Source: Escherichia phage Ecp_YSF
Strand: one strand, 5' to 3'
Sequence record: OR327751.1
Length of the DNA stretch: 53,268 nucleotides
The position numbers and the translations under genes were made by a program. This document shows, one piece after another, positions 142 to 47,688 of the stretch. The notes below the pieces were generated by a model. It did no database searches. It saw nothing but the letters and a program-made list of their open reading frames with translations, and was not told the DNA's origin. Numbering within the stretch: position 1 is the stretch's first letter; every line of letters starts with the position of its first letter.

Positions 142-306
142 CTTTTCCCCGATGGTCCCCATAAACAAGGCTGATTCACTTGGGCGGTTCGAATCAAATT
201 TAATAAGTGTCTTGGCCGCAGTGGAAACACCATTTAAGCCAATGTTTTGTAATGTCCGTAATAGTCCACGTCAGGGCACTTACTTAAATTTTAACTGGAG
301 AGAAAC

Positions 307-528
307 ATGAAAACTGCTGAAATTGCCGAAGAGATTTATAAGGCCGTAATAGCCAACCAAATTACCAGTGAAGTCCTGCACTTGGATATTGAAGAAGTTC
401 GCAATGCCTTTGGTGGTTTTGCAATCTTGTCAATAGAAGCTGCGGAAGCACTGACAAACACGTACAATCAACGCGAATATGAAAAGCGTTCTGTACTAAA
501 TGCGTCGCTACAGGCGTCATTAAAATAA
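307..528 (+). CDS. Hypothetical small protein (73 aa)
   Basis: ATG start preceded by GGAGAGAAAC; first ORF after terminal repeat. Confidence 0.45.
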   Translation: MKTAEIAEEIYKAVIANQITSEVLHLDIEEVRNAFGGFAILSIEAAEALTNTYNQREYEKRSVLNASLQASLK

Positions 529-584
529 TACCATTATCATGGTGCGGAGCTAATTAATCTCCCACCATATGAACCGGAGAGCAA

Positions 585-1235
585 ATGATTACTGCAACAC
601 TCGTTGACCACATGGGCAGCGACCTTACAACTGTTAATGCTGCACGAGTTTCTTACGGTGCAGAATCCCACGAAATGTCGCTTCGTGATGAGAAGCTGAT
701 TGAGTTTCTTGCCAAGCACAAACACATTACGCCGTTCCGTCATGCACAAGTAACTCTTCGTTGCAAAGCTCCAATCTTCATTGCACGTCAGCTTGGCAAA
801 CACCAAACTGGCTTTAGTTGGAATGAGGTAAGCCGTCGTTACAAAGATGGTGAAGCAATTTCAATCGAATGCTTTGTTCCGGAAACCGTGTTTGCACGGC
901 CCCAGAAGTTAATGACCCAGGCTGCACAAGCTGTTGAGCCAGAGGTGGCAAAAGCAATCTCAGAAATTATTGAGTATGCAAACCGTCGGGCTGTCCGAGA
1001 ATATAAATCCTTAGTTGGATTGGGTGTTGCTCCAGAGCAAGCTCGCATGGTGTTGCCACAATCCATGATGACTGAATGGGTTTGGACCGGTTCCCTTTAT
1101 GGCTGGGCATCCATGTATAATCAACGTTCCTCCGAACATGCGCAATATGAAGTTCGCTTGTTTGCGGAAGAAGTGAATAAAATCATGTCAGAACTGTTCC
1201 CAATTTGTTGGAAGGCTCTGACCAACCAGGAATAA
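585..1235 (+). CDS. thyX: Flavin-dependent thymidylate synthase (ThyX)-like
   Basis: Translation has ThyX-like blocks (VNAARVSYG; ITPFRHAQVTL; PIFIARQLGKHQTGFSWNEVSRRY). Canonical RHR triad is replaced by KHQ. Confidence 0.7.
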   Translation: MITATLVDHMGSDLTTVNAARVSYGAESHEMSLRDEKLIEFLAKHKHITPFRHAQVTLRCKAPIFIARQLGKHQTGFSWNEVSRRYKDGEAISIECFVPETVFARPQKLMTQAAQAVEPEVAKAISEIIEYANRRAVREYKSLVGLGVAPEQARMVLPQSMMTEWVWTGSLYGWASMYNQRSSEHAQYEVRLFAEEVNKIMSELFPICWKALTNQE

Positions 1236-1239
1236 ATAA

Positions 1240-3003
1240 ATGAACGTCAAGCAATGTGTGGCTAAGATTAAGCACGATGTACCAGACTGTAAATCCACAT
1301 CTGGCAAGTCTTTACAGGTTTGGTTGAATGTCGATGAAGCTGGTAATAAGAACTTCTCTGGTTACTGCTTTGCGTGTGGCGTTCTAGTACCAAATCCTTA
1401 TGGCAATAATCCGGACAACATTCCAGAGATTAAAGTCAAAACTCCAGAAGAAATTCAGGAAGAAGTTGATGAAATCACTGCTTGTCCTCCGTTTGATTTA
1501 ACCCATCGCAGCATCGAGCCAGACTTCTGGAAAGCTGCTGGTGTTCGACTTCTGTATTCAGAGTATGATGGGAAGACTCCAAATGCTCTGGCACATGGCT
1601 ACACCAAAAATGGTAAACTTGTTCGTTGGAAGATTAAACTTCTGAACAAGAAAGTTATGTGGTCAGTTGGCGACACCCAGGGTAACGACCCTTACAACTG
1701 GATGGCTGCAAAAGCAATTGGCGGTAAGACACTGTTCATCACAGAAGGTGAAGAAGACTGCATCGCATTGCGTCAAATCCTCAAAACTATGAACCGTGGT
1801 GGTGCATACGAAGATTTGGATTTTGCTGTAATTAGTTTGAGTGACGGAAGTGACTCCGTACACAAATGTTTGTCACCAGTTGCAGAAGAAATTAAGCAAC
1901 GTTGGGAGCAGGTTGTTATTGTATTCGATGATGATGAACCTGGACGTAAAGCTGCAAAAGAAGCGTGTCGATTGTTGCCTGGTGCAATGATTGCAACACT
2001 TCCAGCTAACGATGCCAACGATTGTTTGAAGCGTGGCTTGCTCAAAGCTACTCAATCTGCTGTTGTGTTCCGTGCTGCTCGTCCTCTGCCTACAGCACTT
2101 GTCAACAAAGAACTTCTTATGGAAGAGCTTGATGATGAGGTTGAACAGGGTGTGGATTATCCTTGGCCCAAGTTAACCGACTTAATGTTTGGTCAACGTC
2201 GAGCCGAAGTTATTACAATCGGTGGTGCAGAAGGTGGTGGTAAAACTACCCTGTCCCGTCAGATTGTGCATCACAACATTACCAAGCACGATTGGGGAGT
2301 GTTTACTGCATACATGGAGGAAACTCCTACAGAAACACTGCGCCGAATGGCTGGCCTTAATGACAACTTGCCATATTGGGAACCTGCGTTTACTCGTGAA
2401 GACCCTCGATATGATGAAGCTAAGTTCCGTCAAACTGCTGCGAAGATGCTTCGTAACATGGAGATTTGGGACCGCAAGCAAGCTGGAGAAGACCCTTATG
2501 AAACCTGGGATGGGTTAAAGACGATTCTTCGTCAGATTGGACCAGACATTGATATGTTTGTCCTTGATAACTTAACCTACTTATCGGAAGGGATTTCTGC
2601 CTCAGAGAAGAACGACTTCTTAGGTAAGCTGTATGCAGATATTACTAAGCTGGCAGACCAATACCAGTTCCATGTAAATATCTTGTCGCACCTTAACCCT
2701 GTGGCAAAAGGTCAACGACCTCATGAGGATGGTGGACGTATTAAGAAGTCAGACTTTACTGGCTCACGTGCTGCTGCTAAATATTCTCATGGCATGTTCG
2801 GCTTTGAGCGTAATAGCCAGGCAGTTGACCCAAACTGTTCTATCATTCGTTCCATTAAGGCTCGTAAGAGTGGTAAAACAGAAGGCTTCAAGACGTATTA
2901 TGACACCGAATCTGGTCGAATTATTCAACGTTCTTGGGACGACTCGCTGTTCGAAACCAAAGAGATTGTTCAACTTACTAAGAAGAACGGTCCACATCAA
3001 TAA
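1240..3003 (+). CDS. Bifunctional DNA primase/helicase (T7 gp4-like)
   Basis: N-terminal Cys-rich region and TOPRIM-like acidic motifs (LFITEGEEDC, VVIVFDDDEPGRK); C-terminal DnaB-like Walker A GGAEGGGKTT and Walker B FVLDNLTY. Confidence 0.85.
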   Translation: MNVKQCVAKIKHDVPDCKSTSGKSLQVWLNVDEAGNKNFSGYCFACGVLVPNPYGNNPDNIPEIKVKTPEEIQEEVDEITACPPFDLTHRSIEPDFWKAAGVRLLYSEYDGKTPNALAHGYTKNGKLVRWKIKLLNKKVMWSVGDTQGNDPYNWMAAKAIGGKTLFITEGEEDCIALRQILKTMNRGGAYEDLDFAVISLSDGSDSVHKCLSPVAEEIKQRWEQVVIVFDDDEPGRKAAKEACRLLPGAMIATLPANDANDCLKRGLLKATQSAVVFRAARPLPTALVNKELLMEELDDEVEQGVDYPWPKLTDLMFGQRRAEVITIGGAEGGGKTTLSRQIVHHNITKHDWGVFTAYMEETPTETLRRMAGLNDNLPYWEPAFTREDPRYDEAKFRQTAAKMLRNMEIWDRKQAGEDPYETWDGLKTILRQIGPDIDMFVLDNLTYLSEGISASEKNDFLGKLYADITKLADQYQFHVNILSHLNPVAKGQRPHEDGGRIKKSDFTGSRAAAKYSHGMFGFERNSQAVDPNCSIIRSIKARKSGKTEGFKTYYDTESGRIIQRSWDDSLFETKEIVQLTKKNGPHQ

Positions 3004-3068: not shown

Positions 3069-5003
3069 GTGTTGTATCCTTGGGAAAATATGTATGCCAG
3101 TGACATTGAAACAACTGGTCTGTTGGAGCAAATGCGTAAGCAAGCTGCACCACGTCTTCACAACATCGGGTATATCGATGTTCTGACTCGTGAAGAAACT
3201 GTAATAGAGTGGACCGACAGAAAGTCTATCCAGGCATTTCTGGATACAGGCCCAACATTAATCATGCACAACGGCGCAACCTTCGACTTTGAAGCACTGA
3301 GGTTCCTTGGTTACGACGTTTCAAAATGTACACTAATTGATACTTTGTTTATCAGTTGGTATCTGCAACCTCGTCGTGTTAAGCACGGCTTAGAAGGTTA
3401 CGGCGAAGAGTTTGGTGTGCCAAAACCAGTCATTGAAGATTGGGAAAATCAAACTCAAGAAGAGTACAACCATCGTGTGATGGAAGACTGCAAGATTCAG
3501 TTGAAGCTGTGGGAACAGCAATACATTCAACTCTTAAAGATTTATAAATCTCCTGGCGAAGTTAAACGCTTCGTTGAATATCTGATGACAAAAGCTCGTC
3601 AACAGGTTATTCAGCAACGAACTCGCTGGAAGTTAAACATTGAGAAGGCACTGGCATTTAAGGCCAAGCTGGAACCAATGATTAAAGAGAAGACGGACGC
3701 ATTGGAAGCATCAATGCCGCGTGTTCCGGAATATGTTATCAAAACCCGTCCAGCTAAATGCCACAAGATGAACGGGCAACTGTCTGCCACTGGAATTAAG
3801 TGGAAGGCTATTTGTGATGCAAACGGTTTGGACTGGAAAGACCCAGACCTGGCTATAAAAGTTCTTAAAGGCTATAAGAAGCCTAATGCTGGTTCACATG
3901 TTCAAATTAAAGACTGGTTGTTCAGCCTAGGTTGGGAACCAGAAACCTTTAAGTTTGACCGTAATAAGGAAACAGGTGAAACTCGCCAGATTCCACAAAT
4001 CACTGTGAAGGATGAAGATGGCAATCCTGAAATATGTCCGAGCTTGCATAAGCTGGCGGAAAGAAACCCCGACTCTGGTATTCAACATCTTATTGGGATG
4101 GGCGTGTATAAACACCGTCTGTCTGTTGTTAATGGCTTCCTTCGCGACGTCGATGAAGATGGGTTCCTTACTGCACGATGTGGTGGCCTTACCAATACTT
4201 TACGCCTTAAACATCGCGAACTTGTTAACCTCCCTTCTATTCGTGTATTTGGCGGTGAAGAACTGCGTTCAATGTTGGAAGCGTGGCGCGAAGATTACGA
4301 ACAGTTAGGCTCTGACTTGTGCTCACTGGAAGACCGTTGTAAGCACCACTTCCAGTGGATGTATGACCCTGAATACGTTAAGAAGCAGTTGGCACCAGAC
4401 TATGATGCTCACCTTGCAATTGGCGTAATTGGCGGATTTATTACCGAACAGGAATCTCAGGACCACAAGGACGGGATTAAGAAGTGTAAACAACGTCCAA
4501 TGTTTAAGACTACAAACTATGCTTGTCAGTATGGTGCTGGTGTACCAACTGTAGCTCGTTCTGCTGGCTGTGACCAGACTACTGCTGCACGACTGCATAA
4601 AGCATATTGGGACTTGAACTGGTCTATTAAAGAGATTGCTGCCAACACCAAAGTTGTAACAATTGATGGTCAGATGTGGCAACAGAATCCAGTAAACAAA
4701 TTCTGGTATTCGTTGCGTACAGAGAAAGACCGCTTCTCCACATTGTGTCAGGGCACTGGTGCATATGTGTTTGATGTTTGGTGTAACAACATCATTGCAA
4801 TTTGTAATGAACGTTGGGGCTGTGACCCGCTTCTGTCTGGACAATTCCATGATGAATTGATTCTCCAAGTTAAGAAAGGTTTCCGTGATTTGTGGACGGA
4901 CTTGCTTAATGAAGCAATGGACCGGACCAACAAAGAACTTAAACTCAATCGTGATTGTGCATGTGATGTACAATTTGGCGATAACTACGCAGAGATTCAC
5001 TAA
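3069..5003 (+). CDS. DNA polymerase, family A, with 3'-5' exonuclease domain
   Basis: Exo motifs DIETTGL and HNGATFDFEAL; pol motif B KTTNYACQYGAG; motif C QFHDEL. GTG start at 3069 follows GGAG; in-frame ATG at 3090 is an alternative. Confidence 0.85.
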   Translation: MLYPWENMYASDIETTGLLEQMRKQAAPRLHNIGYIDVLTREETVIEWTDRKSIQAFLDTGPTLIMHNGATFDFEALRFLGYDVSKCTLIDTLFISWYLQPRRVKHGLEGYGEEFGVPKPVIEDWENQTQEEYNHRVMEDCKIQLKLWEQQYIQLLKIYKSPGEVKRFVEYLMTKARQQVIQQRTRWKLNIEKALAFKAKLEPMIKEKTDALEASMPRVPEYVIKTRPAKCHKMNGQLSATGIKWKAICDANGLDWKDPDLAIKVLKGYKKPNAGSHVQIKDWLFSLGWEPETFKFDRNKETGETRQIPQITVKDEDGNPEICPSLHKLAERNPDSGIQHLIGMGVYKHRLSVVNGFLRDVDEDGFLTARCGGLTNTLRLKHRELVNLPSIRVFGGEELRSMLEAWREDYEQLGSDLCSLEDRCKHHFQWMYDPEYVKKQLAPDYDAHLAIGVIGGFITEQESQDHKDGIKKCKQRPMFKTTNYACQYGAGVPTVARSAGCDQTTAARLHKAYWDLNWSIKEIAANTKVVTIDGQMWQQNPVNKFWYSLRTEKDRFSTLCQGTGAYVFDVWCNNIIAICNERWGCDPLLSGQFHDELILQVKKGFRDLWTDLLNEAMDRTNKELKLNRDCACDVQFGDNYAEIH

Positions 5004-5264: not shown

Positions 5265-6131
5265 ATGGCATTTGCTGCTCCTACACTGGCCTCGAACAAG
5301 ACTCCTTCTGCTGCACCATTACTGGAAGCGGGTGGTTATCCTGCTCGTGTTTGCCGTATTATCGACCTGGGCTTACAGCCTGGTTCTGCTAAATATCCTA
5401 CTCCGTCCTTGAAACTTCTGGTTACTTTCGAACTGCTCGACGAGTACATGAAAGAAGTTGACAGTGAAGGTAAAATGGTCATGGTCCAAGACCCAGACGA
5501 AGATGACGGCATCATGATGGCGAAGAATCTTGAAGACAAGCCGCGTTGGTTTGACTTTGAGTTTACCTATAATGCTGACGGCTTCATGGGTGAGAACTCC
5601 CACATCTACAAATTCGCTAAGGCGATTGATGCACTGGAAGTTAAACCTAATCTGGAACAAGGCATCCAGGGCCATCCTGCCAAGAACCTGCCGGACTGGT
5701 TGGGCGAACCCCTGATTGTTGGCATTGTTCAGTATACCAAGCAGTCAGGTAAGAATGCTGGCCAGGTTGCAAACAAAGTTGCTACCTTCTCTCCGATGAA
5801 ATCTAAGGAGAAGAAAGAAGCTAAAGCTCTGGTTAACCCGACTGTCTTCTTTGACATGTCTGAGCCGGACTTAGAAGTATTCAACAAACTGCCAGGTGGC
5901 GAATCTCCGTATGCAATCAAGAACCGTATTACTTCCGGTGTTGATTTCTACAAGACTAAGCTGTCTGCACTGTTAGGCGGTAAACCTGCCGATGAAGGCG
6001 CTGTACCGAATCAGGCTTCTGATGAAGAAGTTGATGCAGCTATGAAAGCTGAACTGGAAGCACAGGCTGCTGCAAAAGCACAGCGTGAAGCAGAAGGTGG
6101 CGCTGCTGGCGGTACGGGTATGCCGTTCTAA
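5265..6131 (+). CDS. Hypothetical protein in replication module; possible ssDNA-binding or recombination protein
   Basis: 288 aa, acidic and Ala-rich C-terminal region ending GMPF; sits between polymerase and exonuclease. Function is inferred from position only. Confidence 0.3.
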   Translation: MAFAAPTLASNKTPSAAPLLEAGGYPARVCRIIDLGLQPGSAKYPTPSLKLLVTFELLDEYMKEVDSEGKMVMVQDPDEDDGIMMAKNLEDKPRWFDFEFTYNADGFMGENSHIYKFAKAIDALEVKPNLEQGIQGHPAKNLPDWLGEPLIVGIVQYTKQSGKNAGQVANKVATFSPMKSKEKKEAKALVNPTVFFDMSEPDLEVFNKLPGGESPYAIKNRITSGVDFYKTKLSALLGGKPADEGAVPNQASDEEVDAAMKAELEAQAAAKAQREAEGGAAGGTGMPF

Positions 6132-7738: not shown

Positions 7739-8483
7739 GCTCCTCGATGATGGTACAAAATACACAAAGGCTCACGCACATGATTGGGAAGACCCAGATT
7801 GCCGTATCAAAGGGCGCTGTGAACTCTTCATCAAGATTGACGGAATTCGAGCTATCCGTAATAAATCAGGTAGTGTCTGGAGTCGTAATTCCAAACCCCT
7901 ACCTCATTTGGACCACTTACAGTTCAGAGATGCTGAGATATTCCGTAATAGTTGGAATGAGACTTCTAGCATCCTCGGACGTATTGACCCACCAAGCGTC
8001 CCTCTAACCCAGGACAATGTGTATGAGTTGAGCGATGGTGCGGTTGACCCACGCTTGTACATCGGCTGGTGCAAAGACCCAAGCAATGAAAACCTTAAGG
8101 CATTGATGGATAAATATCTGGCGCTTGGTCATGAAGGTATCATTGTCCGTGATGCAAAAGGTAAGTGGTGGAAGATTGTACCATATAAATATGCCGATGT
8201 GAAGATTACTGGTATGAAAGAAGGTACTGGTGCTCTTAAAGGTATGTGTGGTTCTATCTCCTCGAACTACGGCAGTGCTGGTTCAATGGTGAAGGATTGT
8301 CTGGCAGACCACGGTATTCCAGAATCTAACACATTGATTCGTAAGTGGTTGTGGGAACATCGCCACGAGCTAATTGGTTCGATTATGCAAGTTCGATATC
8401 GTGAGAAGACAGAAGCTGGCAAGTTCCGGTTCCCGTCACTCGTTCGTTTACGTGCAGACAAAAGTGAGGAAAGTTTTGATTAA
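7728..8483 (+). CDS. ATP-dependent DNA ligase (minimal phage type)
   Basis: Motif I KIDGIR (KxDGxR); EGIIVRD and WWKIVPYK resemble motifs IV/V; 251 aa. Confidence 0.75.
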   Translation: MSIKLLDDGTKYTKAHAHDWEDPDCRIKGRCELFIKIDGIRAIRNKSGSVWSRNSKPLPHLDHLQFRDAEIFRNSWNETSSILGRIDPPSVPLTQDNVYELSDGAVDPRLYIGWCKDPSNENLKALMDKYLALGHEGIIVRDAKGKWWKIVPYKYADVKITGMKEGTGALKGMCGSISSNYGSAGSMVKDCLADHGIPESNTLIRKWLWEHRHELIGSIMQVRYREKTEAGKFRFPSLVRLRADKSEESFD

Positions 8484-9102
8484 GCGATTAGCTGTTATTC
8501 TCAATGGACCTCCTGGCTGCGGTAAAGATACCATTGCAAATAAGATTGTTGCTGCCGAGGAACCTTACTTTCTTGGCAGGCGCAAATTCATTAAACACCA
8601 GTTTAAGGATGCACTGTATGAGCATACTGCCAAACACTTTCAAGTTGATGTGGACAAGTTTATTCACTACGCTTCGGACCGTGACCTCAAAGACTCTATC
8701 TCCCTTGCAGGTCTTGGTGGCAGAACACCTCGTCAGGCTCTTATTCACGTTAGCGAAGATGTGTATAAGCCTCGCTACGGACAAGACTACTTCGGTAAGG
8801 TTGAAGCTGCTCGTGTTGAAGAACTCGCGGGGCGTATGGGTGGCATTATTAATGTCATTTATCCCGATGGCGGTTTTGGTGATGAAGTCGTTGCCATTGA
8901 GTCTGCTTATGATTTTGTCCTCATTGTGCGTTTGCATCGTGATGGTTTTGATTTCACGGGCGATTCTCGCAGATACATCAACCTCCCAGACACACCTACC
9001 CGCGTAACAGTGGATGAGCATCTAGTTGATGGTAAAGTGGGTGATTCTGTATTCAAAGTGTTCAACTGGATTGAACGCGTAACTTATCAAGTAGAGAAAT
9101 AA
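8464..9102 (+). CDS. P-loop NTPase, putative deoxynucleoside monophosphate kinase
   Basis: Walker A LNGPPGCGKDT near N-terminus; nucleotide-metabolism neighbourhood. GTG start at 8464 chosen to avoid a long overlap with the ligase. Confidence 0.45.
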   Translation: MRKVLIKRLAVILNGPPGCGKDTIANKIVAAEEPYFLGRRKFIKHQFKDALYEHTAKHFQVDVDKFIHYASDRDLKDSISLAGLGGRTPRQALIHVSEDVYKPRYGQDYFGKVEAARVEELAGRMGGIINVIYPDGGFGDEVVAIESAYDFVLIVRLHRDGFDFTGDSRRYINLPDTPTRVTVDEHLVDGKVGDSVFKVFNWIERVTYQVEK

Positions 9103-9104
9103 TC

Positions 9105-9626
9105 ATGTCTTGTATGACCCAAGTTGTTGCAGTTAAACGAGTGCATCCTAATGCGAAATTACCTGTGTACGCTACTTCTGGCGCTGCTGCTGCTGATGTT
9201 TGCACTATCTCCGATAGCACTGTTGTTATCAATCCCGGCTGCTCTGCTGTTTTCGATACTGGCCTCCAATTCGAGATTCCAGTTGGATACGAACTCAAAG
9301 TACATAGCCGTTCTGGTCATGGCTTTAAGTCTGGCATTCGCCTGGCAAACTGCACAGGAATTCTGGACTCCGATTATCGTGGCAATCTTATGGTTAAGTT
9401 GCACAACGACTCGGACACAGCCTTTGTGGTTCAGCCAGGTGAACGTATTTGTCAAGTGCAAGTTAGTAAAGCTACTCAACACCATTTCGTCGAAGTTGAC
9501 CGCTTGAATGCAACTGGTCGTGGTGAAGGTGGGTTTGGCTCAACTGGTCGTGTGGAACTCGGTCAACACGAAAGACCACATATTCCAGAAGGCTTGACAG
9601 TCCACAATCACAGTATTGCCAAGTAA
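9105..9626 (+). CDS. dut: dUTP diphosphatase (trimeric dUTPase)
   Basis: Motifs SRSGHGFKSG, GILDSDYRGNL, PGERICQV and C-terminal RGEGGFGSTG. Confidence 0.9.
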   Translation: MSCMTQVVAVKRVHPNAKLPVYATSGAAAADVCTISDSTVVINPGCSAVFDTGLQFEIPVGYELKVHSRSGHGFKSGIRLANCTGILDSDYRGNLMVKLHNDSDTAFVVQPGERICQVQVSKATQHHFVEVDRLNATGRGEGGFGSTGRVELGQHERPHIPEGLTVHNHSIAK

Positions 9627-43521: not shown

Positions 43522-43542
43522 TAACAACTTTTGGAGGTATTT

Positions 43543-44064
43543 ATGTTTTACACTGGTGTGGGAAGTCGTGAAACTCCCGAGCATATTTGCGAACTGCTGA
43601 CTAAAGTAGCTTCCAAACTGGCCAGGCTTGGCTGGGTAGTTCGTACGGGAGGTGCTCAAGGTGCTGACGAAGCATTCCTGGCTGGCTGCAACGGAAGGAC
43701 AGAGAACTTTATACCTTGGAATGGTTTTGGAAGTTATGGTGGCGTAGTACCGGACCTGAATCGAAATTGGGAATACCTGCAAAGTGTTGAAAACGTAAAC
43801 CCGCTAATTCACAAGAAAGAAACCAGAAACCTCGACAAATACAGAGGATTTTGGAAACTGCAGGCACGAAATGTTAGTCAGGTACTTGGGCTTAACTTAG
43901 ACACTCCATCCAAGTTCTGTATCTTGTACGCTCTGACAACATCAACTGGTGTGAGCGGAGGCACCAACACTGCATATCAGGTTGCAGTGCAGTCTGGAAT
44001 ACCTTGTTTTAACCTGTTTGACCCTGCTGTAGTAGCAAGGTTTGAGAAATTTGTATCTGAGTGA
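43543..44064 (+). CDS. Rossmann-like SLOG/DprA-like protein (possible nucleotide-binding or processing)
   Basis: N-terminus MFYTGVGSRETP ... VVRTGGAQGADEAFLAGC. Confidence 0.35.
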   Translation: MFYTGVGSRETPEHICELLTKVASKLARLGWVVRTGGAQGADEAFLAGCNGRTENFIPWNGFGSYGGVVPDLNRNWEYLQSVENVNPLIHKKETRNLDKYRGFWKLQARNVSQVLGLNLDTPSKFCILYALTTSTGVSGGTNTAYQVAVQSGIPCFNLFDPAVVARFEKFVSE

Positions 44065-46862: not shown

Positions 46863-47153
46863 ATGGAGCATCCGATGGAATATCAGGAAATACCGAAAGA
46901 GTTAGAGCGTATGCAATCTCGCACATATCGTGCAGGGGCAGAACTCCACCAGCATTTGTCAAACTATGTGAACGATTCTCGAAATCTCAGGTCCGAAATT
47001 GCGGTTGATGGTTGTTGCTATCTGGTAACATACGACGAGAAGACCGCCATACTAGACATGCTAGTAAAGGGTGGAAAAGAGCGAATTGAACAGCTCAAAA
47101 TCCTTAATGCGGAACTTCAAGGCATGTGGGAGAAACTCAATGCAAAACGATAA
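46863..47153 (+). CDS. Hypothetical protein (96 aa)
   Basis: ATG-initiated; coiled-coil-like C-terminus. Confidence 0.45.
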   Translation: MEHPMEYQEIPKELERMQSRTYRAGAELHQHLSNYVNDSRNLRSEIAVDGCCYLVTYDEKTAILDMLVKGGKERIEQLKILNAELQGMWEKLNAKR

Positions 47154-47688
47154 CATTGCTCAAGCAGTAGAACAGCTTAAGTCCTGGCGTAGAGATGAAA
47201 CCTTATTGGTTCGTTTCTACACAGGCGAAACTAATTCTGAATTTGTAGATGCGTGGATTGATGGCCTGTCTTGGCGTCATTATGATTTCGACATGCGGGA
47301 GTATTTGCATGAAGAATATGGCATCGAGTATCCAGAATCCGGTACATACGACGTAATTGAATCGAATGAGGAAGATGTTACCGAAGTTTGCTTTGTTGAC
47401 GGGCTGTTCAGCATTCGTAAATATGACAAGTTCAACGAACTGCTTGTTGATACTGACTTGGACGTAATTCTTGCGGCATTCCGTAGCGGTGATATCGACA
47501 TTTTCACTGTAGACGATTTGAATGACAAGGTTATTTGCCGATGTGATTCAATTGCGGATTATTTCCAGCAATATGATGGCATAGAAGTTCCAGACCATCT
47601 TCGTCCATATATCGATTGGGATGCAGTTGCGAGAGATTACGGAAGTGATTACACTTTCTCCGAAGGGATACTATTCTCAAATGCGTGA
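47140..47688 (+). CDS. Acidic protein, ArdA-like anti-restriction candidate
   Basis: Highly acidic; segments VDAWIDGL and YIDWDAVARDYGSDYTF resemble ArdA blocks as recalled from memory; start taken at ATG 47140. Confidence 0.4.
   Translation: MQNDNIAQAVEQLKSWRRDETLLVRFYTGETNSEFVDAWIDGLSWRHYDFDMREYLHEEYGIEYPESGTYDVIESNEEDVTEVCFVDGLFSIRKYDKFNELLVDTDLDVILAAFRSGDIDIFTVDDLNDKVICRCDSIADYFQQYDGIEVPDHLRPYIDWDAVARDYGSDYTFSEGILFSNA

What the first reader, a model, noticed from the sequence alone, without database searches (positions are those of the whole stretch)
585..1235. ThyX-like protein with the conserved RHR substrate-binding triad replaced by KHQ
Flanking ThyX blocks are well conserved (AARVSYG, PIFIARQ, NEVSRRY), but where ThyX normally has R-H-R (the RHRx7S signature contacting the dUMP phosphate) the sequence reads GKHQTGFSW. 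This may be a divergent but functional ThyX, an enzyme with altered nucleotide specificity (possibly linked to DNA modification), or an inactive homolog.
Basis: partly seen in the sequence, partly recalled or inferred. Interest (0 to 1): 0.5.

Follow-up and report, generated by a model that had tools for sequence, protein, structure and literature searches.

The report
Ordinary phage ThyX, variant signature motif
The gene is a normal-looking flavin-dependent thymidylate synthase (ThyX) of a coliphage, and its odd "KHQ" in place of the textbook "RHR" is the shared hallmark of a large, untested ThyX subfamily found in many phages and some bacteria, not a peculiarity of this phage.

Summary
ORF 585-1235 (+, 216 aa) is a full-length ThyX/Thy1 protein reading ARQLG-KHQ-TGFSWNEVSRRY where T. 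maritima ThyX reads ARQWF-RHR-IA-SYNELSGRY. That is R78K, R80Q, a one-residue insertion (x8 instead of x7 before the Ser) and G89R.

It is not an oddity of this phage (Escherichia phage Ecp_YSF, Chaseviridae). The 120 closest homologues I could score, 80/80 metagenomic viral relatives and 49 of 51 loci recovered from bacterial genomes and MAGs lack RHR. They carry (K/R)-H-x ... S-R-R-Y.

In Spirochaetia, SAR202 Chloroflexota, Poribacteria and Nitrospinaceae the gene sits in conserved chromosomal housekeeping synteny. The other catalytic and nucleotide-contacting residues checked (Tm H53, R74, Q75, E86, S88, R90, Y91, R147, R174) are present in this protein. The AlphaFold model is confident and superposes on T. 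maritima ThyX. The protein exceeds NCBI's thyX equivalog cut-off, and dN/dS is 0.18.

The phage also encodes dUTPase and a dNMP kinase. DNA of a close relative is cut by NdeI and MbiI as predicted.

Best reading: a functional dUMP-to-dTMP synthase from a subfamily with a rewired nucleotide/FAD loop. No member has been assayed, to my knowledge. Interest is low.

The parts
585..1235 (+). thyX-like gene, 216 aa (flavin-dependent thymidylate synthase family, KHx/SRRY subfamily)
   Evidence: ORF. Pfam Thy1 E=4.6e-44. TIGR02170 thyX equivalog 141.1 bits against a cut-off of 87.9. AF2 mean pLDDT 93.7. Foldseek best match is T. maritima ThyX, TM about 0.82.
576..580 (+). Shine-Dalgarno-like GGAGA, 4 nt upstream of the ATG
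   Evidence: Read directly from the sequence. The same CGGAGAGcaaATG is listed for ST32 ORF38 in PMC6266442.
798..806 (+). Codons K72-H73-Q74, which replace the canonical R78-H79-R80 of the ThyX signature
   Evidence: Alignments. KH[QS] is present in 119 of the 120 closest homologues.
831..842 (+). Codons S83-R84-R85-Y86 (Tm S88-G89-R90-Y91). The Arg at the G89 position is a subfamily hallmark.
   Evidence: R at this position in 71/80 representatives. (80/80 viral relatives). (49/49 scorable genome loci).
786..791 (+). Codons R68-Q69 (Tm R74-Q75). The PolB equivalents R82 and H83 bind the nucleotide phosphate.
   Evidence: for the mapping; PMC5003785 for the contacts.
723..725 (+). Codon H47 (Tm H53), conserved
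   Evidence: H in 78/80 representatives.
1044..1046 (+). Codon R154 (Tm R147), a dUMP phosphate contact
   Evidence: R in 80/80. PolB R166 equivalent.
1125..1127 (+). Codon R181 (Tm R174), a uracil O2/O4 contact
   Evidence: R in 80/80. PolB R193 equivalent.
1240..3003 (+). Primase/helicase, starting 5 nt after the thyX stop codon
8476..9102 (+). Deoxynucleoside monophosphate kinase (would take dTMP to dTDP)
   Evidence: phrog_139, E=2e-38. The ST32 counterpart gp46 is annotated as hypothetical.
9105..9626 (+). dUTPase (would supply dUMP)
   Evidence: Pfam dUTPase E=7.7e-23. NF001862 151 bits against a cut-off of 103.

Best explanation
The gene encodes a functional flavin-dependent thymidylate synthase (ThyX, dUMP + CH2-H4folate + NADPH -> dTMP). 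Together with the phage's dUTPase (dUTP -> dUMP) and dNMP kinase (dTMP -> dTDP), it would boost dTTP supply for phage replication.

It belongs to a large ThyX subfamily, in phages and in some bacterial chromosomes, whose signature loop reads (K/R)-H-x-[VI]-G-x2-[WY]-N-E-x-S-R-R-Y instead of R-H-R-x7-S-x-R-Y.

Shown here:
- family membership, fold and alignment register;
- conservation of the other nucleotide- and uracil-contacting residues;
- clade-wide distribution of the variant motif;
- purifying selection;
- cellular orthologues in housekeeping synteny.

Inferred:
- K72 still hydrogen-bonds the sugar O3' as R78 does.
- The subfamily-specific Arg at the G89 position (R84 here) supplies positive charge in or near the dUMP phosphate pocket. 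This would have relaxed the constraint on position 80, which now varies (Q, K, T, V, E, S, M, I) across the subfamily.
- Catalysis is otherwise canonical.
For: Family and fold:
- Pfam Thy1 E=4.6e-44.
- TIGR02170 thyX equivalog 141 bits against a cut-off of 87.9.
- PDB sequence search: best match T. maritima ThyX, E=1.5e-31.
- AF2 pLDDT 93.7; Foldseek TM about 0.82 to the T. maritima ThyX-dUMP complexes.

Active site: in 80 subfamily representatives, Tm positions Q75, S88, Y91, R147 and R174 are invariant, R90 is 79/80, H53 is 78/80, E86 is 75/80 and R74 is 72/80. By contrast R78 is K in 70/80, position 80 is variable (Q41, K11, T8, R6, V5, I3) and G89 is R in 71/80.

Clade-wide motif:
- 119 of the 120 closest homologues have KH[QS].
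- 80/80 IMG/VR relatives lack RHR, and all have SRRY.
- 49 of 51 genome/MAG loci show the same pattern; the other two are fragments that could not be scored.

Cellular housekeeping context, conserved within each lineage:
- Spirochaetia: lipoamide dehydrogenase, citrate synthase, pyrF/pyrE.
- SAR202 Chloroflexota: 2-oxoacid dehydrogenase E1b/E2.
- Nitrospinaceae: IspH and AcrB.
- Poribacteria: an enolase-superfamily protein and a class-V aminotransferase.

Selection: dN/dS = 0.18 against phage ST32. All substitutions fall in aa 31 and 100-147, away from the motif.

Inteins: several subfamily members carry an intein inserted exactly in this loop (KHQxG[FM]|C...HN|SWNE). Inteins typically sit in functionally critical sites.

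Gene context: thyX abuts primase/helicase and PolA. dNMP kinase and dUTPase lie in the same replication module. In related phages the subfamily thyX sits with dCTP deaminase, thioredoxin, nucleotide kinase and RNR.

DNA of a relative: phage PYps23T, whose ThyX is 93% identical, gives NdeI and MbiI patterns matching in silico prediction apart from the terminal repeats (PMC8762354).

Residue 89: the PBCV-1 Gln89 side chain can occupy the dUMP phosphate pocket (PMC3498832).
Against: - I found no member of this subfamily that has been assayed or crystallised. The nearest solved structure is only about 36% identical.
- R78 and R80 are described as direct dUMP hydrogen-bond partners that are conserved in the family (PMC3498832), and both differ here.
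- Several T. maritima FAD-contact positions that I recall from memory (E58, N163, R165, N169) also differ.
- I could not check whether the bacteria carrying the variant lack thyA.
- The R84-for-R80 compensation is not a strict covariation. Some members have R at both positions (P0251, P0264), and P0228 has Q80 with G89.
Confidence: 0.8

Rival explanations
1. The altered triad changes the chemistry or the substrate. For example, the enzyme might release 5-hydroxymethyl-dUMP instead of reducing the exocyclic methylene, or act on another pyrimidine nucleotide, feeding a phage DNA modification pathway.
For: - Two residues reported to hydrogen-bond dUMP differ.
- The phage has its own dNMP kinase and dUTPase, as phages with modified thymidine often do.
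- Many early genes are of unknown function.
- A ThyX-family protein (SP-15 gp130) has been hypothesised, but not shown, to be an hmdUMP synthase (PMC5977210).
- From my own knowledge, 5-hmdUMP can be recovered when ThyX reaction intermediates are quenched.
Against: - The uracil-recognising residues R174 and R90, and S88, Y91 and H53, are conserved.
- The identical motif occurs in chromosomal thyX genes in housekeeping synteny in four bacterial lineages, where DNA hypermodification is not expected.
- PYps23T DNA is cut by NdeI (CATATG) and MbiI as predicted.
- No glycosyl-, aminoacyl- or other transferase typical of thymidine hypermodification was found among the ORFs scanned.
- The phage carries an ArdA-like anti-restriction protein instead.
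- SP-15 gp130 is very different: it lacks the Arg residues and has a long C-terminal extension. The SP-15 protein closer to this subfamily, gp9, is the one its authors assign as the true thymidylate synthase.
Confidence: 0.07
2. The protein is a catalytically dead or much weakened ThyX homologue, retained for another role such as nucleotide binding, regulation or a structural part in a replication complex.
For: The literal ThyX signature RHRx7S is not met. No biochemical data exist for the subfamily.
Against: - The other catalytic residues are invariant or nearly so across a subfamily spanning about 40-100% identity.
- dN/dS is 0.18.
- Chromosomal orthologues are conserved in bacteria.
- Inteins target this loop.
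- The score is well above the thyX equivalog cut-off.
Confidence: 0.05
3. The enzyme is a PolB-like methylase with relaxed sugar specificity, acting on UMP as well as dUMP.
For: The R78-equivalent contacts the ribose O3' in PolB. Here it is Lys, next to a one-residue insertion, so the sugar pocket could differ.
Against: - The PolB chain 4p5a is a much weaker match (E=2.6e-18) than T. maritima ThyX (1.5e-31).
- PolB's specificity is attributed to its own Loop 1 and Loop 2, not to the RHR position.
- The gene context is DNA replication and dNTP supply, not nucleoside antibiotic synthesis.
Confidence: 0.03

Closest known systems
Thermotoga maritima ThyX / FDTS (TM0449; PDB 1O26, 1KQ4, 8REO), EC 2.1.1.148
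   Same: Same Thy1 fold (TM about 0.82, 36% identity). Same length class. Conserved H53, R74, Q75, E86, S88, R90, Y91, R147, R174 and H178.
   Different: R78K, R80Q, a one-residue insertion after the triad, G89R and E58R. Positions 163, 165 and 169 also differ. It is a phage gene rather than a cellular one.
ThyX genes of other phages in the same KHx/SRRY subfamily: Chaseviridae (ST32 gp38, phiEcoM-GJ1 gp33, PYps23T), Kuravirus (LAMP gp64), Zobellviridae (Pseudomonas phage O4 gp30, Roseophage SIO1 gp11)
   Same: Same variant signature: KHQVGFSWNEMSRRY in LAMP, KHQVGLSWNEVSRRY in O4, KHKFLRWNEISRRY in SIO1. Same placement within replication or nucleotide-metabolism modules. All are annotated as thymidylate synthase.
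   Different: 44-57% identity outside Chaseviridae. The SIO1 type has K at position 80 and no insertion. None has been characterised biochemically, as far as I could find.
Mycobacteriophage L5 gp48 ThyX
   Same: A phage-encoded Thy1-family thymidylate synthase in a nucleotide-metabolism cluster next to RNR.
   Different: It has the canonical R-H-R and S-Q-R-Y. That it was shown active in vitro is from my memory (Bhattacharya et al. 2008) and was not checked here.
PolB, UMP/dUMP C5-methylase of polyoxin biosynthesis (PDB 4P5A)
   Same: ThyX fold. The nucleotide contacts described for PolB (R82, R86, E94, S96, R98, R166, R193) map onto R68, K72, E81, S83, R85, R154 and R181 here.
   Different: A weaker sequence match. 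PolB has extra loops that govern UMP use and sits in a different biological context.
Bacillus phage SP-15 gp9 and gp130 (two Thy1-family proteins in a phage with hypermodified thymine)
   Same: gp9 carries K-Y-R-V-G ... S-R-R-Y, resembling this subfamily.
   Different: gp9 has a roughly 45-aa insertion inside the loop. gp130, the hypothesised hmdUMP synthase, is highly divergent and unlike the protein here.

Membership tests
ThyX / flavin-dependent thymidylate synthase (Pfam PF02511, TIGR02170, EC 2.1.1.148) | Thy1 domain over the full length, scoring above curated cut-offs | tested here: met
   PF02511: 150.9 bits against 24.8. TIGR02170 equivalog: 141.1 bits against 87.9.
ThyX / flavin-dependent thymidylate synthase (Pfam PF02511, TIGR02170, EC 2.1.1.148) | ThyX three-dimensional fold | tested here: met
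   AF2 pLDDT 93.7, pTM 0.89. Foldseek top 50 hits are all T. maritima ThyX, TM 0.77-0.83.
ThyX / flavin-dependent thymidylate synthase (Pfam PF02511, TIGR02170, EC 2.1.1.148) | Literal signature motif R-H-R-x7-S (Myllykallio 2002, as cited in PMC2826268) | tested here: not met
   The sequence reads K-H-Q-x8-S. Only the His and the Ser are retained. The deviation is shared by the whole subfamily, so it reflects the narrow definition of the motif more than loss of membership.
ThyX / flavin-dependent thymidylate synthase (Pfam PF02511, TIGR02170, EC 2.1.1.148) | Residues that bind and activate dUMP outside the triad (Tm R74, Q75, E86, S88, R90, Y91, R147, R174) and H53 | tested here: met
   All are present in the query (R68, Q69, E81, S83, R85, Y86, R154, R181, H47). 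They are invariant or nearly so in 80 representatives. Contact roles are taken from PMC5003785, PMC3498832 and PMC8316439.
ThyX / flavin-dependent thymidylate synthase (Pfam PF02511, TIGR02170, EC 2.1.1.148) | Homotetramer with bound FAD | not testable with these tools
ThyX / flavin-dependent thymidylate synthase (Pfam PF02511, TIGR02170, EC 2.1.1.148) | dUMP to dTMP activity, or complementation of a thyA mutant | not testable with these tools
   Needs an experiment. No report for any subfamily member was found.
Phage pyrimidine hydroxymethylases that feed DNA hypermodification (ThyA-fold dUMP/dCMP hydroxymethyltransferases) | ThyA (classical thymidylate synthase) fold | tested here: not met
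   The protein has the unrelated Thy1 fold. PMC8989533 states that the known hmdUMP synthases are classical TS-family enzymes.
Phage pyrimidine hydroxymethylases that feed DNA hypermodification (ThyA-fold dUMP/dCMP hydroxymethyltransferases) | Modified base present in virion DNA | tested here: inconclusive
   Only indirect evidence: DNA of the relative PYps23T gives the predicted NdeI and MbiI patterns. No nucleoside analysis exists.

The most novel reading that the evidence does not exclude
The KHx/SRRY proteins form a biochemically distinct branch of flavin-dependent pyrimidine C5-modifying enzymes. The rebuilt loop (Lys at position 78, no Arg at 80, an extra residue, Arg at 89) would change nucleotide or flavin handling enough to give a different product or substrate range, for example 5-hydroxymethyl-dUMP or UMP/dCMP turnover. 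Some phages carrying it would then make non-canonical DNA precursors.
Probability: 0.06. Interest if true: 0.65.

Novelty: new member of a known kind. Interest (0 to 1): 0.22.

Why it matters
For this phage it matters little. The gene is already annotated as thymidylate synthase in GenBank, and the evidence supports that annotation.

The wider point is modest but useful. The textbook ThyX signature RHRx7S is not universal. A large subfamily breaks it in three ways. That subfamily makes up most of the 150 best 50%-identity cluster representatives. It also includes Chaseviridae, Kuravirus and Zobellviridae phages, many marine viral contigs, and chromosomal genes of Spirochaetia, SAR202, Poribacteria and Nitrospinaceae.

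Surveys that filter candidate ThyX sequences on that motif would drop it. One example is the 'more than 2 dissimilar residues' rule in PMC2826268. Inhibitor or mechanism work based on T. maritima, M. tuberculosis or PBCV-1 enzymes has not sampled this loop architecture. One complementation assay and one structure would settle whether the Arg at position 89 substitutes for R80.

Tried and rejected
- A corrected alignment that places RHR elsewhere: rejected. HMMER and MAFFT agree on the register, and there is no R-H-R anywhere in the protein.
- The idea that KHQ is a private mutation or a sequencing error: rejected. It is conserved across hundreds of homologues.
- Literature on phage ThyX motif variants or a ThyX-like hydroxymethylase: nothing on this subfamily. 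The only lead was the untested SP-15 gp130 hypothesis. I fetched gp9 and gp130 and found gp130 unrelated in detail.
- The residue-number search was uninformative.
- The key mutagenesis and mechanism papers are not held in the library: Leduc 2004, Ulmer 2008 and Mishanina 2016. The roles of R78, H79 and R80 therefore rest on two secondary descriptions and my memory.
- L5 gp48 was checked as a possible characterised non-RHR enzyme. It has a canonical RHR.
- Borrelia plasmid ThyX, which I recall as experimentally complemented, is only about 30% identical and was not pursued.
- The genome scan with the broad alignment A1 failed for lack of a conserved stretch. It was repeated with the narrower A2. 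Because A2's search patterns contain KH and Q-x-G-x2-WNE-x-S, that scan cannot say how common RHR types are in genomes.
- Strict covariation between loss of R80 and gain of R89: not supported as a rule (exceptions). It is kept only as a plausible order of events.
- Measuring distances in the AF2 model was not possible, because the coordinates are not exposed.

Full report
**What the window is.** Megablast of the first 8 kb finds 43 phage records covering at least 80% of it at up to 96% identity. All are phiEcoM-GJ1/ST32-like myoviruses of the family Chaseviridae, genus Carltongylesvirus. The exact protein is on record as 'thymidylate synthase [Escherichia phage Ecp_YSF]' on a 53,268-bp contig, the same length as the window.

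**Checking the observation.** ORF 585..1235 on the + strand encodes 216 aa, with GGAGA four bases upstream of the ATG. The primase/helicase gene starts 5 nt after its stop codon.
- The quoted blocks AARVSYG, PIFIARQ, GKHQTGFSW and NEVSRRY are all present.
- Pfam Thy1 matches over aa 5-206 (E=4.6e-44).
- The best solved relative is T. maritima ThyX (E=1.5e-31). The printed alignment puts 'arqlgkhqtgfswnevsrry' against 'arqwfrhria-synelsgry'.
- An independent MAFFT alignment with 80 relatives gives the same register: K72=R78, H73=H79, Q74=R80, S83=S88, R84=G89, R85=R90, Y86=Y91.

There is an extra residue, so the spacing is x8 rather than x7. The Gly after the Ser is an Arg.

**Is it a ThyX?**
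- The protein scores 141 bits against NCBI's thyX equivalog model, whose cut-off is 87.9.
- An AlphaFold2 model built on a 78-sequence alignment has mean pLDDT 93.7 and pTM 0.89. Its only soft stretch is around residues 81-100. This overlaps the loop after the motif that is disordered in substrate-free ThyX and PolB structures (residues 89-104 in PBCV-1 ThyX, 94-102 in PolB).
- Foldseek against the PDB returns T. maritima ThyX chains for all top 50 hits, at TM about 0.8 and 36% identity.

**The variant motif belongs to a subfamily.**
- Of the 120 closest homologues (67-100% identity), 119 have K-H-Q (one K-H-S). One was not matched by my pattern.
- I searched 1.84 billion 50%-identity cluster representatives. 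There were 7,773 family members at E<=1e-3 and 478 at E<=1e-30.
- Among the best 150 of these, the pattern-matched triads were KHQ 54, KHK 11, KHT 8, KHV 5, RHT 5, RHQ 3 and a single RHR. Most unmatched ones show KHQ/KHK-type loops by eye, and a few show RHR.
- In 80 single-domain representatives, Tm positions Q75, S88, Y91, R147 and R174 are invariant. R90 is 79/80, H53 is 78/80, E86 is 75/80 and R74 is 72/80.
- By contrast, position 78 is K in 70/80. Position 80 is Q41/K11/T8/R6/V5/I3. Position 89 is R in 71/80.
- Eighty IMG/VR viral contigs encoding relatives (42-86% identity) all lack RHR, and all have S-R-R-Y.
- Named phages in the subfamily include Kuravirus LAMP (KHQVGFSWNEMSRRY), Pseudomonas phage O4 (KHQVGLSWNEVSRRY) and Roseophage SIO1 (KHKFLRWNEISRRY).
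- Mycobacteriophage L5 gp48 has the canonical RHR.

**Cellular members.** A scan of one genome per GTDB species, using subfamily-specific peptide patterns, found 51 loci. Of these, 49 show the KHx...SRRY loop; the other two are fragments. Many are short MAG contigs or prophage-like. L088, for example, has primase and PolA neighbours. Several lie in long contigs with neighbours that are conserved within the lineage and are plainly cellular:
- Two Spirochaetia (one a 1.79-Mb chromosome): lipoamide dehydrogenase, citrate synthase, an aldo-keto-reductase-like ORF, an SDR, then thyX, then a pyrF-pyrE fusion.
- SAR202/Dehalococcoidia: 2-oxoacid dehydrogenase E1-beta and E2.
- Four Nitrospinaceae: AcrB on one side, IspH on the other.
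- Poribacteria: an enolase-superfamily protein and a class-V aminotransferase.

A gene kept in housekeeping synteny in four bacterial lineages is most simply a working thymidylate synthase. I could not test whether these genomes lack thyA.

**Selection and local evolution.** Against ST32 the gene has dN=0.10, dS=0.55 and dN/dS=0.18. All amino-acid differences fall at residue 31 and in residues 100-147, and the motif region is identical. That patch is only about 66% identical at the DNA level inside flanks of 97-100%, which looks like a recombination mosaic. Three subfamily representatives carry an intein inserted exactly between the triad and the WNE block (ARQLGKHQSGF|CLTGDT...VVHN|SWNERSMRY). 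Inteins usually home to conserved functional sites.

**What the changed residues do.**
- Basta et al. state that R78, R80, S88 and R90 hydrogen-bond dUMP in T. maritima ThyX. They also report that in PBCV-1 ThyX the Gln89 side chain can occupy the dUMP phosphate pocket (PMC3498832).
- The PolB-BrdUMP structure lists the nucleotide contacts as R82, H83, S96', A97', R98' and R166' (phosphate), E94' and R86 (ribose O3'), and R193 and R98' (uracil O2/O4) (PMC5003785).
- With the offset fixed by S96-A97-R98-Y99 = S88-G89-R90-Y91, these map to Tm R74, Q75, S88, G89, R90, R147, E86, R78 and R174. In this protein they are R68, Q69, S83, R84, R85, R154, E81, K72 and R181.
- So every listed side-chain contact is identical except R78, which becomes Lys, a conservative change for a hydroxyl hydrogen bond. 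The R80 equivalent is not among PolB's nucleotide contacts. From memory, in T. maritima it also lies near the FAD pyrophosphate.

My inference is that the subfamily's Arg at position 89 adds charge at the phosphate pocket, and that this relaxed the constraint on position 80. The scatter of residues at 80 fits that view. It is not a strict covariation: P0251 and P0264 have R at both positions, and P0228 has Q80 with G89.

**Context in the phage.** thyX heads the replication module:
- primase/helicase (1240-3003);
- PolA (3069-5003);
- a 288-aa protein with a sub-threshold match to a replication-initiation family;
- 5'-3' exonuclease, HNH endonuclease and ligase;
- a P-loop protein matching the phage dNMP kinase family phrog_139 (8476-9102);
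- dUTPase (9105-9626).

dUTPase, ThyX and dNMP kinase form a straightforward dUTP -> dUMP -> dTMP -> dTDP route. The ST32 paper also lists an RNR beta subunit. In LAMP the subfamily thyX sits with thioredoxin and dCTP deaminase. In phage O4 it sits between a nucleotide kinase and a DprA-like protein, next to PhoH, thioredoxin and RNR. Among the metagenomic relatives, T7-type primase/helicase and PolA neighbours recur.

**Against a DNA-modification role.**
- The uracil-recognition residues are intact.
- Cellular orthologues exist.
- DNA of PYps23T, whose ThyX is 93% identical, gave NdeI and MbiI patterns matching in silico prediction apart from terminal-repeat fragments.
- The ORFs I scanned contained no transferases typical of thymidine hypermodification. 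The phage has an ArdA-like anti-restriction protein.
- The known hmdUMP synthases are ThyA-fold enzymes (PMC8989533).
- The one published suggestion of a ThyX-fold hydroxymethylase (SP-15 gp130, untested) concerns a protein very unlike this one. SP-15 gp9, which resembles this subfamily (KYRVG...SRRY with a large insertion), is the one its authors take as the true thymidylate synthase.

These points lower the modification reading but do not exclude it. hmdU, for example, need not block NdeI, and no nucleoside analysis exists.

**Verdict.** The protein is a member of the ThyX family by profile, fold and catalytic residues. It fails only the literal RHRx7S signature, which is too narrow for a large subfamily. 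Nothing here is surprising for this phage. The small general lesson is that the textbook motif misses a widespread, biochemically unsampled branch of ThyX.

Noticed in passing
P0124, P0257, P0268 (relatives); the insertion point corresponds to window aa 77/78, nt about 815-818: Several subfamily ThyX proteins carry an intein (C-LTGDT ... VVHN|S) inserted exactly between the KHQxG(F/M) triad and the SWNE block of the signature loop. P0210 also shows an intein-like HNFVANGFIVHN|S tail. Other long representatives (350-580 aa, with 2-3 matched stretches) may carry further insertions or fusions.
   Followed up: partly
window 880-1025 (thyX aa 100-147): Against phage ST32 the thyX gene is a mosaic. 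The bin 801-1000 is about 66% identical at the DNA level, while the flanks are 97-100%. Apart from residue 31, all amino-acid differences fall in this surface helix/loop segment, which suggests allele exchange by recombination.
   Followed up: partly
window 201-400: A second divergent patch relative to ST32 (73% identity in a 200-nt bin against 95-100% around it). It overlaps the small ORFs 152-310 and 307-528, which are of unknown function.
   Followed up: no
window 8476-9102: This 208-aa protein is annotated only as 'hypothetical' in ST32 (gp46). It matches the phage deoxynucleoside monophosphate kinase family phrog_139 (E=2e-38) and has a weak P-loop NTPase hit in Pfam.
   Followed up: partly
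window 43531-44064; also L138 3626-4162 (Pseudomonas phage O4): A DprA-like/SLOG-type protein (phrog_768, E=4e-49; Pfam DNA_processg_A only weakly). In Pseudomonas phage O4 its counterpart lies immediately downstream of the subfamily thyX and a small 'nucleotide kinase'. This hints at a recurrent link with nucleotide metabolism rather than recombination.
   Followed up: no
window 5265-6131: A 288-aa protein of unknown function between PolA and the exonuclease. It matches NCBIfam 'phage replication initiation protein, NGO0469 family' below cut-off (59.6 against 75 bits) and also matches phrog_862.
   Followed up: no
window 47071-47688: An ArdA-like anti-restriction protein (phrog_14321, E=4.5e-54; Pfam ArdA, weak).
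   Followed up: no
PP952070.1 (hit H21) / P0008: A record named 'Staphylococcus phage Pel53' (53.7 kb, host given as Staphylococcus hyicus) encodes a ThyX 96.7% identical to this coliphage protein. The host label looks doubtful for what appears to be a Chaseviridae genome.
   Followed up: no
L082 5512-6348 (Bacillus phage SP-15 gp9): SP-15 gp9 has a K-Y-R-V-G ... S-R-R-Y loop interrupted by a non-intein insertion of about 45 residues. Similar long loop insertions occur in P0214, P0225, P0232, P0235, P0260, P0263 and P0270.
   Followed up: no
plasmid hits H82-H85: The same thyX match (36.1% identity to the query, same query span in all four hits) is carried on plasmids of Exiguobacterium, Mammaliicoccus, Staphylococcus aureus and Enterococcus hirae. 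This suggests a mobile thyX cassette, possibly related to antifolate tolerance.
   Followed up: no
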